The notes beneath the pieces were generated by a model. It did not search any database. It worked only from the letters and a program-made list of their open reading frames with translations, and had not been told where the DNA came from. From positions 64,001 to 104,223 of the IMG/VR virus record IMGVR_UViG_3300020201_000012: a stretch of DNA of 40,223 nt; one strand, 5' to 3'. Positions 130 through 24,818 of this stretch are shown here, piece after piece. This DNA comes from a virus. Taxonomy: Duplodnaviria > Heunggongvirae > Uroviricota > Caudoviricetes. Numbering within the stretch: the first letter of the stretch is position 1; each line of letters opens with the position of its first letter. The translations under genes were made by a program, and so were the position numbers.

Positions 130-157
130 TTGACAAATATTATATGCGGTGTATAAT
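130..157 (+). promoter_or_regulatory. sigma70-type promoter for the TROVE/DUF2828 gene
   Basis: TTGACA (130-135), 16 nt, TATAAT (152-157). Confidence 0.75.
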
Positions 158-218
158 TATAAGTGAGCAGTTATGCTATAATAATATTGATAAATTCAAC
201 AAAGAGGATAGCCAACCC

Positions 219-1721
219 ATGAGTTTTATAAACGAACTTCAAACTAGTACTAATAAAACCGCACGTACCGAAAACGGTGCTGTGTCTAACACATCTACAC
301 TTGACCCAGTTTTAGATTTTTTTTCTAAGGCTGGGGCTATGCGTGGAAGAGAAGTAGAGGCATTTAGTCTTTTCCAAAAGGCTTTCGATGCTCACCCGCA
401 GAACGCAATTCGTGTTTTGTTCTACCTACGAGATATTCGTGGTGGACAAGGCGAGCGTTCTGTTTTTAGTTATATACTTGATCAGCTCGATGAAGATTTT
501 GTAGCCAAGATTGCACATTACATACCTGAATACGGTCGCTGGGACGAGGTGCCACTAAATGATGCTACAGCCGAAATAATCAGTCACCAATTAAGTGAAG
601 ACTTCAAACATATGGAAGAAGGATTATCTATTTCGCTTCTAGCCAAGTGGATGCCGTCTGAAAATGCCGGTAAAGCTTCTTTTAAGGATGCTCGTAAGTT
701 AGCTAAACTATTGGGTTGGGTTGGTAATCCAATCGAAATCAAAACAGTGGGCGTAGATGAAAATGGTGGTGAAGTAGAAACTATCAAGAGAATACCTAAC
801 CTTGCACCGTATCGTCGCAATGTTGTCAAGCTTCGTAAATATTACGAAAATTTCTTAGAACACTTAATGAGTGAAAAGCGTTGGGGCGAAATAGATTATT
901 CTAAGCTGCCGTCGCAGGCTCACAAAAAGCACGTTAAAGCCTTCTTCAGGAATGATGAAACTCGATATAAAGCCTACCTAGACTCAGTGACAAAAGGTGA
1001 AGCCAAGATCAACGCTGGCACACTGTTCGCCTACCAGCTGTATGACATGGTTGCTGGCTATAGGGCTACTGATGATGAGAAGAAAGCCGCTAATGCTCTA
1101 TGGGCAAATTTGCCAGACTACACAAGAGGGCAGAACGCACTTGTTTTAGCTGATGTATCTGGTTCTATGGCTGGCTTTCCTATGAGTGTCAGTGTTTCAC
1201 TGGCACTATACTTCGCCGAACGCAACGAGGGTCAGTTTAAGGACTATTTCATGACGTTCACTTCACAGTCACGTTTACAGAAGATTTCCGGTGATACTTT
1301 GGAAGCTAAGATGCGTTCGATTGAAACCGCTAACTGGGATATGGGCACCAACTTACAGTCTGCTTTCGATGCGATATTAAAGGCGGCACGAGACGGAAAT
1401 GCTACACCAGATGAAATGCCATCTACTTTGTACATCATCTCAGATATGCAGTTCGACGAAGCGACTGCAAGAAATGATAAAACTAATTTCGAAGTTATAG
1501 CTGAGAAGTTCAAGACTGCTGGTTACGAGCTACCACATGTGGTGTTCTGGAACTGTAGCGCTTACGGCAAGGATTCACCAGCAACGGTATATGATGAGAG
1601 GGTCACATTGATCTCAGGCTCTAACCAGAGTGCATTTCAGTATGCAGTTGAAGGTAAAACCCCGATGCAGAGCATGCTTGATATTCTTAACTCAGATAGA
1701 TACGCGGGTATAGTAATATAA
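219..1721 (+). CDS. Ro60-like TROVE + vWA protein (DUF2828-type)
   Basis: Motifs TENGA, LDFF, RDIRGGQGER, PEYGRWD, AKWMP, INAGTL, MIDAS-like DVSGSM, ISDMQFD, VVFWN. Start moved to ATG 219 because the track start (144) lies inside the promoter. Confidence 0.85.
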   Translation: MSFINELQTSTNKTARTENGAVSNTSTLDPVLDFFSKAGAMRGREVEAFSLFQKAFDAHPQNAIRVLFYLRDIRGGQGERSVFSYILDQLDEDFVAKIAHYIPEYGRWDEVPLNDATAEIISHQLSEDFKHMEEGLSISLLAKWMPSENAGKASFKDARKLAKLLGWVGNPIEIKTVGVDENGGEVETIKRIPNLAPYRRNVVKLRKYYENFLEHLMSEKRWGEIDYSKLPSQAHKKHVKAFFRNDETRYKAYLDSVTKGEAKINAGTLFAYQLYDMVAGYRATDDEKKAANALWANLPDYTRGQNALVLADVSGSMAGFPMSVSVSLALYFAERNEGQFKDYFMTFTSQSRLQKISGDTLEAKMRSIETANWDMGTNLQSAFDAILKAARDGNATPDEMPSTLYIISDMQFDEATARNDKTNFEVIAEKFKTAGYELPHVVFWNCSAYGKDSPATVYDERVTLISGSNQSAFQYAVEGKTPMQSMLDILNSDRYAGIVI

Positions 1722-1728
1722 AAAGTAC

Positions 1729-1757
1729 TTGACATTTAAAACTCGGTAGAGTATAAT
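1729..1757 (+). promoter_or_regulatory. consensus sigma70 promoter driving the ncRNA array
   Basis: TTGACA (1729-1734), 17 nt, TATAAT (1752-1757); no convincing ORF before the terminator at 2344. Confidence 0.85.
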
Positions 1758-1764
1758 TACAGTG

Positions 1765-1821
1765 TAGGGTTTAACAGCAATAAAAAAACAATCGCCTTGA
1801 ATGCAATTTAAATAACCCTAG
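1765..1821 (+). ncRNA. Y-like RNA unit 1 (closing stem, ACAGCAA, anticodon-like hairpin)
   Basis: TAGGGTT (1765-1771) pairs with AACCCTA (1814-1820); ACAGCAA follows the 5' strand; internal ATCGC-CTTGAAT-GCAAT; ends in CTAG. Confidence 0.6.
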
Positions 1822-1837
1822 TTTTTAGAAAAAATAT

Positions 1838-1930
1838 TAGACAGAAACAGCAAACCATATCGCCAGCAATGGCTCTACCAGGAACGGTTAGGTAGCTCCG
1901 TATAAAAAAAAGCCACCACAAACTGTCTAG
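1838..1930 (+). ncRNA. Y-like RNA unit 2
   Basis: TAGACAG (1838-1844) pairs with CTGTCTA (1923-1929); ACAGCAA; GCCA-GCAA-TGGC GNRA hairpin; CTACC/GGTAG stem with a D-loop-like AACGGTTA loop; ends in CTAG. Confidence 0.6.
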
Positions 1931-1945
1931 AATAGAAAAAGCCTG

Positions 1946-2056
1946 TAGGGGCTTCCAGCAAATACACAATCCACTGTAAATGGAGAGGTCGCAGGTTCAA
2001 ATCCTGTCAGGGCTTGCCCTGTAGCTCAGCGGTTAGAGCGCTATTAAAGCCCCTAG
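1946..2056 (+). ncRNA. Y-like RNA unit 3 containing a circularly permuted tRNA-like domain (GUA anticodon loop)
   Basis: TAGGGGCTT pairs with AAGCCCCTA (9 bp); CCAGCAA; then anticodon arm 1969-1985, AGGTC, T arm 1991-2007, loop-closed acceptor stem 2008-2021, D arm 2024-2039. Confidence 0.8.
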
Positions 2057-2144
2057 TATATAGATTATGGCCGCTGAGGCATTCGCCCTTATAAGGTGTT
2101 ATAAGACAATCACGGTTGCCATTGTCTATATTAAATCACAATAC

Positions 2145-2230
2145 AGAGCTATACAGCAACTAAAAATATTGGTTCGATTCCAATCTTCTCTTCGGATAAG
2201 ATGCCCTAACGGTAGGGGCACTAGCTCTAG
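2145..2230 (+). ncRNA. Y-like RNA unit 4 (YrlA-like T arm, capped acceptor, D arm)
   Basis: AGAGCTA pairs with TAGCTCT (2222-2228); ACAGCAA; ATTGG-TTCGATT-CCAAT; CTTCTC-TTCG-GATAAG; GCCC-TAACGGTAG-GGGC; ends in CTAG. Confidence 0.75.
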
Positions 2231-2235
2231 ATCAT

Positions 2236-2338
2236 TAGACACAAACAGCAAAAATACATATACTTTCTCGAAAGAGTCACAGTAGTACTATCGGTGATAT
2301 GGCTATCCCCCTGAATCGTACATTCCAAAAGTGTCTAG
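2236..2338 (+). ncRNA. Y-like RNA unit 5
   Basis: TAGACAC (2236-2242) pairs with GTGTCTA (2331-2337); ACAGCAA; internal CATAT/ATATG, ACTT-TCTCGAAA-GAGT and TCAC/GTGA stems; ends in CTAG. Confidence 0.6.
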
Positions 2339-19873: not shown

Positions 19874-20045
19874 CGCTTTACCGGAAACTGTAATTTGTTT
19901 ATGAAAGACCCTAATATCCTATGAATTTCATAGGATATATTGGATATTCTAAGCTTTTGTTGGAAAACTTGGGGGCATTACAGGAGTCGAACCCATACAT
20001 AGTGGAACCGCCACTGCCCATCAGTCGGACAGCTACTCATAATAG

Positions 20046-24563: not shown

Positions 24564-24818
24564 ATGACCCCACCCAAAACCAGTCAATCATGTGCGCGAC
24601 AGTTAATAAAAAGCGATCTCAAGGAAGCAATCCAAGTAATGGATAGTGCAGCGTACAAACAAAGATCAAGCTGTATAAAGGCACACGGACTAAATCGAGA
24701 AACCCCGCCCAAATCTAGTCTATTGTGTATACATTGTACTAACCAAAGTAAATACGAGTACTTAGGGATGAAGTTATGTTATCCCCACTACTTGTCGGAG
24801 GAACGAGCAAATGATTAG
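24564..24818 (+). CDS. hypothetical Cys/His-rich protein
   Basis: Coupled ORF; CIHC...LCYPH. Confidence 0.45.
   Translation: MTPPKTSQSCARQLIKSDLKEAIQVMDSAAYKQRSSCIKAHGLNRETPPKSSLLCIHCTNQSKYEYLGMKLCYPHYLSEERAND

What the first reader, a model, noticed from the sequence alone, without database searches (positions are those of the whole stretch)
2145..2230. Unit 4 is a minimal tRNA-elbow mimic with a UUCG-capped acceptor stem
Seen: T arm ATTGG-TTCGATT-CCAAT, acceptor-like hairpin CTTCTC-TTCG-GATAAG (one mismatch), and D arm GCCC-TAACGGTAG-GGGC with the conserved GG, but no anticodon arm. This matches the T-acceptor-D order I recall for YrlA effector domains, but with an independent sequence from unit 3. 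Two different extra-stable tetraloops (CUUG, UUCG) capping the acceptor in units 3 and 4 point to selection on RNA structure.
Basis: partly seen in the sequence, partly recalled or inferred. Interest (0 to 1): 0.7.

Follow-up and report, generated by a model that had tools for sequence, protein, structure and literature searches.

The report
Elbow-only tRNA mimic, Ro-like partner RNA
An uncultured 104-kb phage encodes, right after the gene for a Ro60-shaped protein, a small RNA that copies only the "elbow" and sealed top half of a tRNA and carries a conserved handle shared with many other phages; it is most likely one of that protein's partner RNAs, a cousin of the known Ro/Y-RNA particle.

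Summary
Window 2145-2228 folds as closing stem, ACAGCAA box, T arm, UUCG-capped acceptor-like hairpin and D arm with GG. There is no anticodon arm.

It is not chance. A model built from unit 4 alone finds full-length relatives in dozens of phage contigs. All 23 base pairs covary (94% paired against 59% in shuffles). A model built only from those relatives scores unit 4 at 86.7 bits (E 2.6e-20).

It is not a tRNA (ARAGORN, Rfam) and not a YrlA by Rfam's model, and it lacks YrlA's GNCGAA box. It belongs to an RNA family defined by a short stem plus ACAGCAA, found beside DUF2828 genes. The window's DUF2828 protein models as a Ro60 ring (top 13 PDB matches are all Ro60).

Most likely unit 4 is a Y-RNA-like adaptor. 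The handle would bind the Ro-like protein and the bare tRNA elbow would engage a tRNA-reading factor. Expression, binding and D/T-loop contact are untested.

Caveats: the nearest relative's counterpart has no D arm, and UUCG caps are not conserved.

This scan has met the handle family before on other DNA. I found no published description of it.

The parts
144..1721 (+). Gene for the DUF2828+DUF7788 protein with a Ro60-like fold, the presumed protein partner
   Evidence: Pfam DUF7788 3.8e-41 and DUF2828 1.7e-33. 46-47% identical to mycobacteriophage 'Ro-like RNA binding protein'. AlphaFold model pLDDT 84.8; the top 13 PDB matches are all Ro60, best 1yvr with E 1.7e-7 and TM 0.54 over the full length. 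No sequence-level PDB match.
1729..1757 (+). Consensus sigma-70-type promoter (TTGACA, 17 nt, TATAAT) for the RNA array
   Evidence: 12 of 12 hexamer matches. The first module's stem begins about 8 nt downstream.
1765..1820 (+). Unit 1: handle-only module (stem UAGGGUU/AACCCUA, ACAGCAA at 1774-1780)
   Evidence: Sequence; weak R2 hit 1766-1819 through the handle.
1837..1930 (+). Unit 2: handle module (stem UUAGACAG/CUGUCUAG, ACAGCAA at 1847-1853)
   Evidence: Sequence; stem scan.
1946..2055 (+). Unit 3: handle module carrying a full permuted tRNA-like body (anticodon-like arm, T arm, CUUG-capped acceptor, D arm)
   Evidence: Partial YrlA match 1984-2042, 38.8 bits, E 6.9e-7, below the gathering score of 69; stem scan.
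2060..2129 (+). Long hairpin between units 3 and 4, without a CAGCAA handle
   Evidence: 12-bp stem AUAGAUUAUGGC/GCCAUUGUCUAU.
2145..2228 (+). Unit 4, the finding: closing stem, UA-CAGCAA handle, 8-nt spacer, T arm, UUCG-capped acceptor-like hairpin, D arm; no anticodon arm
   Evidence: fold; relatives; covariation; 86.7 bits with a model that excludes the window.
2154..2159 (+). CAGCAA box of unit 4's handle
   Evidence: Invariant in the MAFFT alignment of 18 modules. Present in units 1, 2, 3 (as CCAGCAA), 4 and 5.
2168..2184 (+). T arm AUUGG-UUCGAUU-CCAAU
   Evidence: T stems of relatives change on both sides, e.g. ACGGG/CCCGU and UUAGG/CCUAA.
2185..2200 (+). Acceptor-like hairpin CUUCUC-UUCG-GAUAAG, sealed, with no 3' end and no CCA
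   Evidence: All 6 pairs of this helix change on both sides among relatives.
2203..2219 (+). D arm GCCC(U)-AACGGUA-(G)GGGC with G2211 G2212 in the place of G18 G19
   Evidence: Class consensus gccccAAUGGUaggggc. GG in 40 of 42 D-like hairpins.
2235..2338 (+). Unit 5: handle module (stem UUAGACAC/GUGUCUAG, ACAGCAA at 2245-2251), conserved in L004
2346..2370 (+). Intrinsic terminator closing the array
   Evidence: CCUCC-UUCG-GGGGG followed by a U run.

Best explanation
Unit 4 is one module of a roughly 600-nt noncoding transcript. The transcript runs from the promoter at 1729-1757 to the terminator at 2346-2370 and follows the gene for a Ro60-fold (DUF2828) protein.

Each module is a Y-RNA-like adaptor with two parts. 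The first is a handle: a covarying closing stem followed by ACAGCAA. This is the family's constant part and, by analogy with Ro60 and Y RNAs, the likely binding site for the Ro-like ring protein. The second is a variable payload.

Unit 4's payload is the minimal tRNA 'top': the T arm stacked on a sealed acceptor-like helix, plus a D arm whose GG can dock on the T loop to form the elbow. The closing stem stands where the anticodon stem would be.

Because unit 4 has no anticodon loop and no free CCA end, it cannot decode or be charged. It would present only the elbow and minihelix surface to a factor that reads tRNA shape, such as TruB or TrmA, RNase P, a CCA-adding or repair enzyme, or a host nuclease. 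It could either tether that factor to the Ro-like protein or titrate it.

Shown here: the anatomy, its conservation and covariation, the link to DUF2828 genes, and the protein's Ro60-like fold. Inferred: transcription and processing, protein binding at the handle, formation of the elbow, and the identity of the recruited factor.
For: Anatomy and signals.

The family is real. A single-sequence model finds full-length relatives, including some with different T stems. Pairing is 94.1% against 58.9% in shuffles, 23 of 23 pairs change on both sides, and sliding the partners drops pairing to 34-53%. The leave-window-out model scores unit 4 at 86.7 bits.

The elbow-only class recurs. There are 46 distinct short-spacer modules; 42 have a D-like hairpin and 40 of those carry GG.

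Link to the protein. 60 of 159 loci fetched by an RNA pattern alone carry a DUF2828 homolog within the flanks. Handle modules lie beside the gene in protein-seeded loci. They also lie beside it in 5 of 5 cultivated phages inspected: Felix O1, Aeromonas 4_4572, Listeria LMTA-94, Staphylococcus SEP9 and Mycobacterium Faith1.

Protein fold: Ro60-like.

Precedents. YrlA RNAs sit beside Ro60 genes, mimic tRNA and are modified by TruB and DusA (PMC4201824). Thermus phage phiLo Ro60 binds phage Y-like RNAs and host PNPase (PMC12135203).

No conserved ORF overlaps the unit.
Against: No expression data could be obtained.

Rfam's YrlA and tRNA models do not match unit 4, and the GNCGAA Ro-binding box of YrlA is absent, so binding by the Ro-like protein is analogy only.

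The positional counterpart in the closest relative (L004 5287-5360; proteins 76% identical) keeps the T arm and UUCG-capped helix but has no D arm. The elbow is therefore not indispensable in this lineage.

Unit 4's stacked T and acceptor helices total 11 bp, not 12, and include a C/U mismatch. The thermodynamic model slightly prefers another hairpin to the T arm (T-arm pair probabilities 0.08-0.28).

In the Felix O1-type phage Bas63, the Ro60-like gp130 alone counters the Ppl defence, even when moved into T7. So a protein of this kind can act without the phage's RNAs (bioRxiv 10.1101/2024.10.10.617714). That gp130 is a DUF2828 ortholog is inferred from the matching Felix O1 gene order, not checked.
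Confidence: 0.6

Rival explanations
1. Free-standing decoy or sponge. Unit 4 acts without the Ro-like protein, soaking up a host factor that recognises the tRNA elbow or T arm, such as a modification enzyme, RNase P or Z, or a defence nuclease. On this reading the stem plus ACAGCAA is a processing or stability signal that releases modules from the precursor, not a protein handle.
For: The tRNA-like part is conserved and covaries. Both fit a conflict over tRNAs. Bas63 gp130 works without phage RNAs.
Against: The handle follows DUF2828 genes across unrelated phages, including modules with no tRNA-like payload at all. That is hard to explain by a generic processing signal. With no anticodon loop, unit 4 cannot be bait for anticodon nucleases.
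Confidence: 0.2
2. Decaying remnant. Unit 4 is a degenerate copy of a unit-3-type permuted tRNA-like module, or the junction of two former tandem tRNA genes, that lost its anticodon arm and has no function of its own.
For: 11-bp instead of 12-bp stack, a mismatch in the acceptor helix, and no U8/N9 in canonical register. The L004 counterpart has lost the D arm. 19 of 103 modules keep an NCCA relic, pointing to descent from tRNA genes.
Against: The same short-spacer architecture recurs in 46 distinct modules with compensatory changes in every helix. Unit 4 lies close to the class consensus, at 86.7 bits. It is identical in contigs from four other mat metagenomes, while neighbouring positions vary.
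Confidence: 0.07
3. Precursor of a two-piece tRNA-like RNA. RNase P cuts at the acceptor cap and the 3' end is trimmed and given CCA, as in M. smegmatis YrlA, yielding a chargeable or ribosome-binding molecule.
For: M. smegmatis YrlA is cut by RNase P and CCA is added in vivo (PMC4201824). Many relatives keep NCCA in the cap.
Against: Unit 4's cap is a closed C(UUCG)G tetraloop with no CCA, and its acceptor helix has 6-7 pairs with a mismatch. Chen et al. saw no cleavage of YrlAs lacking a 7-bp acceptor stem.
Confidence: 0.05

Closest known systems
YrlA, the tRNA-like Y RNA of bacterial and mycobacteriophage Ro60/Rsr (Rfam RF02553; Chen et al. 2014, PMC4201824)
   Same: Permuted tRNA-like domain in the order T arm, acceptor-like hairpin, D arm, closed by a helix in the place of the anticodon stem. 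Encoded next to, and on the same strand as, a Ro60-shaped protein gene. The neighbouring unit 3 gives a partial YrlA match.
   Different: Unit 4 gives no YrlA hit at E<=10. It lacks the GNCGAA(N)G box and has ACAGCAA after a variable stem instead. It has no V arm. The partner protein is DUF2828/DUF7788, which has no detectable sequence similarity to TROVE Ro60. It is one of five or six modules under a single promoter.
Thermus phage phiLo Ro60 with Yrl1 and Yrl2 (PMC12135203)
   Same: A phage-encoded Ro60-type ring protein with phage-encoded partner RNAs beside the gene, proposed to hijack a host enzyme (PNPase).
   Different: That protein is a canonical TROVE Ro60 and its RNAs were picked by a CGAA motif. 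No tRNA-elbow module or ACAGCAA handle is described.
Class I RNAs of dictyostelid social amoebae (Kjellin et al. 2021, PMC7919456)
   Same: A short covarying stem joins the 5' and 3' ends. An unpaired conserved 11-nt motif follows the 5' strand, with invariant positions that fit ...C..CAA. Conserved AAG start and CUGU end, and a variable interior. Phage modules read (U)AGG-stem-NA-CAGCAA ... stem-CUG(U).
   Different: Eukaryotic, 42-65 nt, with no tRNA-like payload. The known binder is an RRM protein (Rnp1A/CIBP). Homology with the phage handle is not shown. The full motif sequence is from my memory and does not appear in the text I read.
Bas63 gp130, the Ro60-like counter-defence protein of a Felix O1-type phage (bioRxiv 10.1101/2024.10.10.617714)
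   Same: A phage protein structurally like Ro60, lying directly upstream of tRNA-type genes. The authors guess that some of these are Y RNAs. Felix O1's DUF2828 gene has the same position and is followed by four handle modules.
   Different: The function shown, countering the Ppl defence, needs the protein only. No partner RNA was identified. Orthology with the window's protein is inferred, not tested.
tRNA and other tRNA mimics (tmRNA tRNA-like domain, plant-virus TLS, mascRNA); comparison from general knowledge
   Same: T loop UUCGAUU, D-loop GG, coaxial T and acceptor helices.
   Different: No anticodon arm, no free 5' or 3' acceptor end, no CCA. Not detected by ARAGORN or RF00005.

Membership tests
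YrlA (Rfam RF02553) | Scores at or above the family's gathering threshold (69 bits) with the Rfam covariance model | tested here: not met
   No YrlA match on 2145-2230 even at E<=10 over an 801-nt search. Only unit 3 matches, partially (38.8 bits).
YrlA (Rfam RF02553) | GNCGAA(N0-1)G motif near the 5' end, the presumed Rsr-binding site (Chen et al. 2014) | tested here: not met
   The motif is absent from 2145-2230; the conserved box is UACAGCAA.
YrlA (Rfam RF02553) | tRNA-like domain with T arm, acceptor-like stem-loop and D arm in that 5'-to-3' order | tested here: met
   the order is as in the YrlA consensus structure line.
YrlA (Rfam RF02553) | Encoded within 4 kb of, and on the same strand as, a TROVE-domain Ro60 ortholog | tested here: inconclusive
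   It lies 424 nt downstream on the same strand. However, the protein matches DUF2828/DUF7788, not TROVE, in Pfam. It resembles Ro60 by predicted fold only.
YrlA (Rfam RF02553) | Bound by Ro60/Rsr and modified by TruB (Psi55) and DusA in vivo | not testable with these tools
   Needs immunoprecipitation and modification mapping.
Stem-plus-ACAGCAA 'handle' RNAs beside DUF2828 genes (no published name found; seen repeatedly in this scan) | Closing stem of 6-10 covarying pairs joining the module's two ends | tested here: met
   AGAGCUA/UAGCUCU. All 7 pairs change on both sides among relatives, with 92% of cells paired.
Stem-plus-ACAGCAA 'handle' RNAs beside DUF2828 genes (no published name found; seen repeatedly in this scan) | CAGCAA 1-4 nt after the 5' strand of the stem | tested here: met
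   UA then CAGCAA at 2154-2159; invariant in alignment A1.
Stem-plus-ACAGCAA 'handle' RNAs beside DUF2828 genes (no published name found; seen repeatedly in this scan) | Lies in an array next to a DUF2828 gene | tested here: met
   Array of the pattern A-A-B-C-A directly after the gene. 60 of 159 RNA-pattern loci carry the gene.
Stem-plus-ACAGCAA 'handle' RNAs beside DUF2828 genes (no published name found; seen repeatedly in this scan) | Physical binding of the handle by the DUF2828 protein | not testable with these tools
   Inference from co-location only.
tRNA | Cloverleaf with anticodon arm and open acceptor end | tested here: not met
   ARAGORN finds no tRNA in the window. RF00005 gives no hit on unit 4. 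There is no anticodon arm and the acceptor is capped.
tRNA elbow (functional mimicry, not a family) | T loop U54-U55-C56-R57-A58 and D-loop G18 G19 available for the interloop pairs | tested here: met
   UUCGAUU and AACGGUA in unit 4. GG in 40 of 42 relatives' D-like hairpins.
tRNA elbow (functional mimicry, not a family) | The D loop and T loop actually dock in the folded RNA | not testable with these tools
   Needs probing or a solved structure. The L004 counterpart lacks the D arm.

The most novel reading that the evidence does not exclude
Unit 4 represents a distinct 'elbow-only' payload class within an undescribed RNP family made of a Ro60-fold DUF2828 protein and ACAGCAA-handle RNAs. On this reading, phages display a bare tRNA elbow and minihelix on a Ro-like ring to capture or mislead a host factor that reads tRNA shape, as part of counter-defence. 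The handle would be homologous to that of dictyostelid Class I RNAs, which would make this an ancient RNP spanning viruses and eukaryotes.
Probability: 0.3. Interest if true: 0.8.

Novelty: new variant of a known kind. Interest (0 to 1): 0.6.

Why it matters
Ro60/Y-RNA particles are known from animals, some bacteria and a few phages. How Y RNAs choose their effectors remains open.

Here a protein family with no sequence similarity to Ro60, found in about 700 sequenced phages, travels with arrays of small RNAs. These RNAs share one handle and carry interchangeable payloads.

Unit 4 is the simplest tRNA-shaped payload: an elbow plus a sealed top half and nothing else. That makes it a clean probe for asking which cellular or phage factor is recruited through tRNA shape alone.

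One protein of this type has been reported to defeat a bacterial defence system (Bas63 gp130). The RNAs may therefore be a missing half of a counter-defence mechanism. The Felix O1-type phages, which also carry handle modules, offer a laboratory system for testing this.

Tried and rejected
Database and alignment searches that gave nothing:
- BLASTN of 1700-2400 against GenBank phages: no match.
- Rfam at gathering and at E<=10, and ARAGORN: nothing on unit 4.
- phmmer of the protein against PDB sequences: nothing.
- MAFFT alignments of modules (A1, A2) were too poor downstream of the T arm for counting pairs. I used model-guided alignments instead; these lean towards the modelled structure.

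Expression:
- No RNA holder is listed among public runs.
- The four DNA runs laid are contigs from microbial-mat metagenomes in which unit 4 is identical. They say nothing about expression or covariation.

Coding potential:
- The overlapping ORFs (2067-2285 on +, 2126-2251 on -) have no conserved protein-level matches in 168 related loci. A coding reading is rejected.
- Other CAGCAA-plus-stem matches elsewhere in the 104-kb genome are weak 6-7-pair matches, several with G-U pairs. I treated them as chance.

Tertiary-pair check:
- The base before the T stem is U in 12, A in 9 and G in 2 of 23 relatives. I make no claim of a 15-48 Levitt pair.

Literature searches:
- 'DUF2828', 'Ro-like + phage + Y RNA' and 'ACAGCAA' returned nothing relevant.
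- My guessed accession for Bas63 was a different phage, so the orthology of gp130 was not checked.

Not attempted: complex prediction, because it takes proteins only.

Full report
**Setting.** The window is the last 40 kb of a complete 104-kb IMG/VR phage record. Close variants occur in microbial-mat metagenomes. The finding lies in a 670-nt gap with no conserved ORF.

- Upstream of the gap is a 525-aa gene (144-1721).
- Downstream are a small ORF, a C5 methylase and the large terminase.
- The gap opens with a perfect TTGACA-17-TATAAT promoter (1729-1757) and closes with a UUCG-capped intrinsic terminator (2346-2370).
- The same genome carries 24 ordinary tRNA genes elsewhere, all with encoded CCA.
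I did not test that.

- T arm: AUUGG-UUCGAUU-CCAAU (2168-2184).
- Hairpin abutting it: CUUCUC-UUCG-GAUAAG (2185-2200), with one C/U mismatch.
- Linker: AU.
- D arm: GCCC-UAACGGUAG-GGGC (2203-2219).

First, the unit is closed by a 7-bp stem, AGAGCUA (2145-2151) with UAGCUCU (2222-2228). Second, the 5' strand of that stem is followed by UA-CAGCAA and an A-rich 8-nt spacer.

There is no hairpin between the handle and the T arm, so there is no anticodon arm. The closing stem occupies the place of the anticodon stem, as in YrlA.

Two registers are equally stable. U2184 can pair with A2168 (T stem 5 bp, acceptor 6 bp) or with A2201 (4 bp and 7 bp). The D stem can also extend through U2207-G2215, which leaves the canonical-looking loop AACGGUA.

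The tRNA-like fold is 0.7-1.4 kcal/mol above the minimum-energy fold. That fold replaces only the weak T arm with another hairpin. Nearest-neighbour energies ignore T-loop and tertiary stabilisation, so this is a caveat and not a refutation.

**Is it more than chance?** The T-arm consensus GGTTCRANTCC occurs 3 times in the window against 0.15 expected.

The comparative evidence is stronger. The closest relative, L004, has a protein 76% identical. It shows the same array layout, with a T-arm plus UUCG-capped module in the same position.

- A pattern scan of IMG/VR for CAGCAA, a gap, and this T arm returned more than 118 contigs. A narrower scan with a 7-13 nt gap returned 56.
- Among 103 distinct modules with a closing stem, 86 have a hairpin abutting the T arm, and 74 also have a D arm with GG.
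- Restricting to short spacers and allowing any T-stem sequence gives 46 distinct 'elbow-only' modules. Of these, 42 have a D-like hairpin and 40 carry GG, although GG was not required in that parse.

To avoid relying on my own parser, I built a covariance model from unit 4 alone (R1). It found full-length matches in dozens of contigs. Some had T stems I had not searched for, such as ACGGG/CCCGU in L040 and UUAGG/CCUAA in L140 and L128.

On the model-guided alignment of 24 relatives, without the window:
- 94.1% of cells pair, against 58.9% in shuffles;
- all 23 pairs change on both sides;
- sliding the 3' partners by 1-3 columns drops pairing to 34-53% (similar).

These alignments are fitted to the structure and the sequences are related, so the numbers are generous. 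Even so, the acceptor and closing stems are essentially unrelated in sequence from phage to phage, yet they still pair.

A second model built only from those 24 relatives (R2) scores unit 4 at 86.7 bits, E 2.6e-20. This is the best hit in the 40-kb window. The seeds were chosen with R1, so the test is not fully independent. It does show that unit 4 sits close to the class consensus (gccccAAUGGUaggggc for the D arm).

**What it is not.**
- ARAGORN finds no tRNA in the window.
- Rfam's tRNA and YrlA models give nothing on unit 4 even at E<=10. Unit 3 gives a partial YrlA match of 38.8 bits, below the gathering score of 69.
- YrlA's GNCGAA(N)G box (PMC4201824) is absent.
- The overlapping ORFs are not conserved.

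**The family it belongs to.** All the window's units except the hairpin at 2060-2129 share one frame: (U)AG-stem, 1-3 nt, CAGCAA, payload, stem', (C)UAG.

The same frame lies beside DUF2828 genes in:
- the protein-seeded IMG/VR loci;
- mycobacteriophage Faith1;
- Felix O1, Aeromonas phage 4_4572, Listeria phage LMTA-94 and Staphylococcus phage SEP9.

In none of these records is it annotated.

The link also holds in the other direction. 60 of 159 loci fetched by the RNA pattern alone contain a DUF2828 homolog within their flanks, although some of those loci are real tRNAs or truncated contigs. By comparison, 695 of 50,697 phage records (about 1.4%) have the gene at all.

Arrays mix three kinds of module: handle-only, full tRNA-like and elbow-only. 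The window reads A-A-B-C-A and L004 reads A-B-B-C-A.

**The protein.** It has no detectable sequence similarity to any solved structure and carries Pfam DUF2828/DUF7788 rather than TROVE. An AlphaFold model made from a 22-sequence alignment has pLDDT 84.8 and pTM 0.83. Its 13 best PDB matches are all Ro60: Xenopus, human, Deinococcus Rsr and Thermus phage phiLo. These align over the full length (TM 0.38-0.54, E down to 1.7e-7). vWA domains follow only after them.

**Mechanism, and how sure I am.** I rate it about 0.9 that unit 4 is a real, selected, structured RNA module of the handle family.

I rate it about 0.6 that it works as a Y-RNA-like adaptor, with the handle held by the Ro-like ring and the elbow-only payload engaging a factor that reads tRNA shape. 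This rests on three things: co-location, the protein's fold, and precedent.

- YrlA is bound by Rsr, is modified by TruB and DusA, and in M. smegmatis is cut by RNase P.
- phiLo Ro60 with its Yrl RNAs assembles with host PNPase.

The payload has no anticodon loop and no free CCA end. It therefore cannot decode, be charged, or bait anticodon nucleases. What it offers is the T loop, the elbow and the minihelix.

**Evidence pulling the other way.**
- The L004 counterpart lacks the D arm.
- The T-plus-acceptor stack is one pair short of a tRNA's and contains a mismatch.
- Acceptor caps are heterogeneous. UUCG is the commonest tetraloop but accounts for only 4 of 24 four-base caps.
- 19 of 103 modules instead keep an NCCA relic of a tRNA 3' end, about 12 times the chance expectation.
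- Bas63 gp130, a Ro60-like protein of a Felix O1-type phage, counters the Ppl defence on its own, even in T7.

The last point suggests the RNAs modulate or redirect the protein rather than being required for all its activities. It also keeps alive the rival that the RNAs act as free decoys.

**Comparison with what is known.** Functionally and architecturally the nearest relative is YrlA, but two defining features were tested and not met. I therefore file unit 4 as working like a YrlA effector domain, not as a YrlA.

The handle closely resembles the defining features of dictyostelid Class I RNAs: a terminal stem, an unpaired motif with invariant ...C..CAA next to the 5' strand, an AAG start and a CUGU end (PMC7919456). 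I checked the published description but not homology.

I found no paper describing the phage handle RNAs. The PhageMaP preprint only guesses that some 'tRNA genes' next to gp130 may be Y RNAs.

This scan has noted the DUF2828/handle family many times on other DNA, including a tRNA-like RNA without an anticodon arm. Those notes gave me leads.

**Verdict.** Unit 4 is a new variant of the Ro/Y-RNA theme and a clean example of a recurrent elbow-only class. Expression, protein binding and elbow formation remain to be shown.

Noticed in passing
window 19960-20040, minus strand: A third T-arm-like element (GGTTCGACTCC at 19983-19993) sits among tRNA-like fragments in a stretch where ARAGORN calls no tRNA. 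It may be a tRNA remnant or another mimic, and it lies far from the Ro-like locus.
   Followed up: no
window 2060-2129: A long hairpin between units 3 and 4 (12-bp stem AUAGAUUAUGGC/GCCAUUGUCUAU) has no CAGCAA handle. G2115 reads A in contigs from all four other mat metagenomes.
   Followed up: partly
window 2263 (unit 5): One metagenome contig (run X4) carries a 22-nt tandem duplication (TTTCTCGAAAGAGTCACAGTAG) inside unit 5, so module interiors tolerate insertions.
   Followed up: no
L004:5287-5360: The positional counterpart of unit 4 in the closest relative keeps the handle, T arm and UUCG-capped 7-bp helix. It replaces the D arm with AUUUU.
   Followed up: partly
many loci, e.g. L028:3430-3526, L053:4211-4303, L033: 19 of 103 T-arm handle modules keep NCCA directly after the 7-nt acceptor strand, about 12 times chance. 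This looks like a relic of an encoded tRNA 3' end. It may mark modules that RNase P opens, as reported for M. smegmatis YrlA.
   Followed up: partly
L132:5086-5170: A handle module in non-permuted order: D arm, anticodon-like arm, then T arm. The closing stem stands in the acceptor's place, so the handle frame accepts tRNA bodies in either topology.
   Followed up: no
L171 (Salmonella phage Felix O1, AF320576.1 23.8-24.8 kb): Four unannotated handle modules are interleaved with the annotated tRNA genes downstream of ORF86 (DUF2828). The fourth carries a tRNA-like body (R2 29.3 bits). Several annotated small 'unknown' ORFs overlap them.
   Followed up: partly
whole genome G000, 24-36 kb: The phage encodes 24 tRNA genes in two clusters, all with genomically encoded CCA. 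One (24622-24692) has an irregular anticodon loop according to ARAGORN.
   Followed up: no
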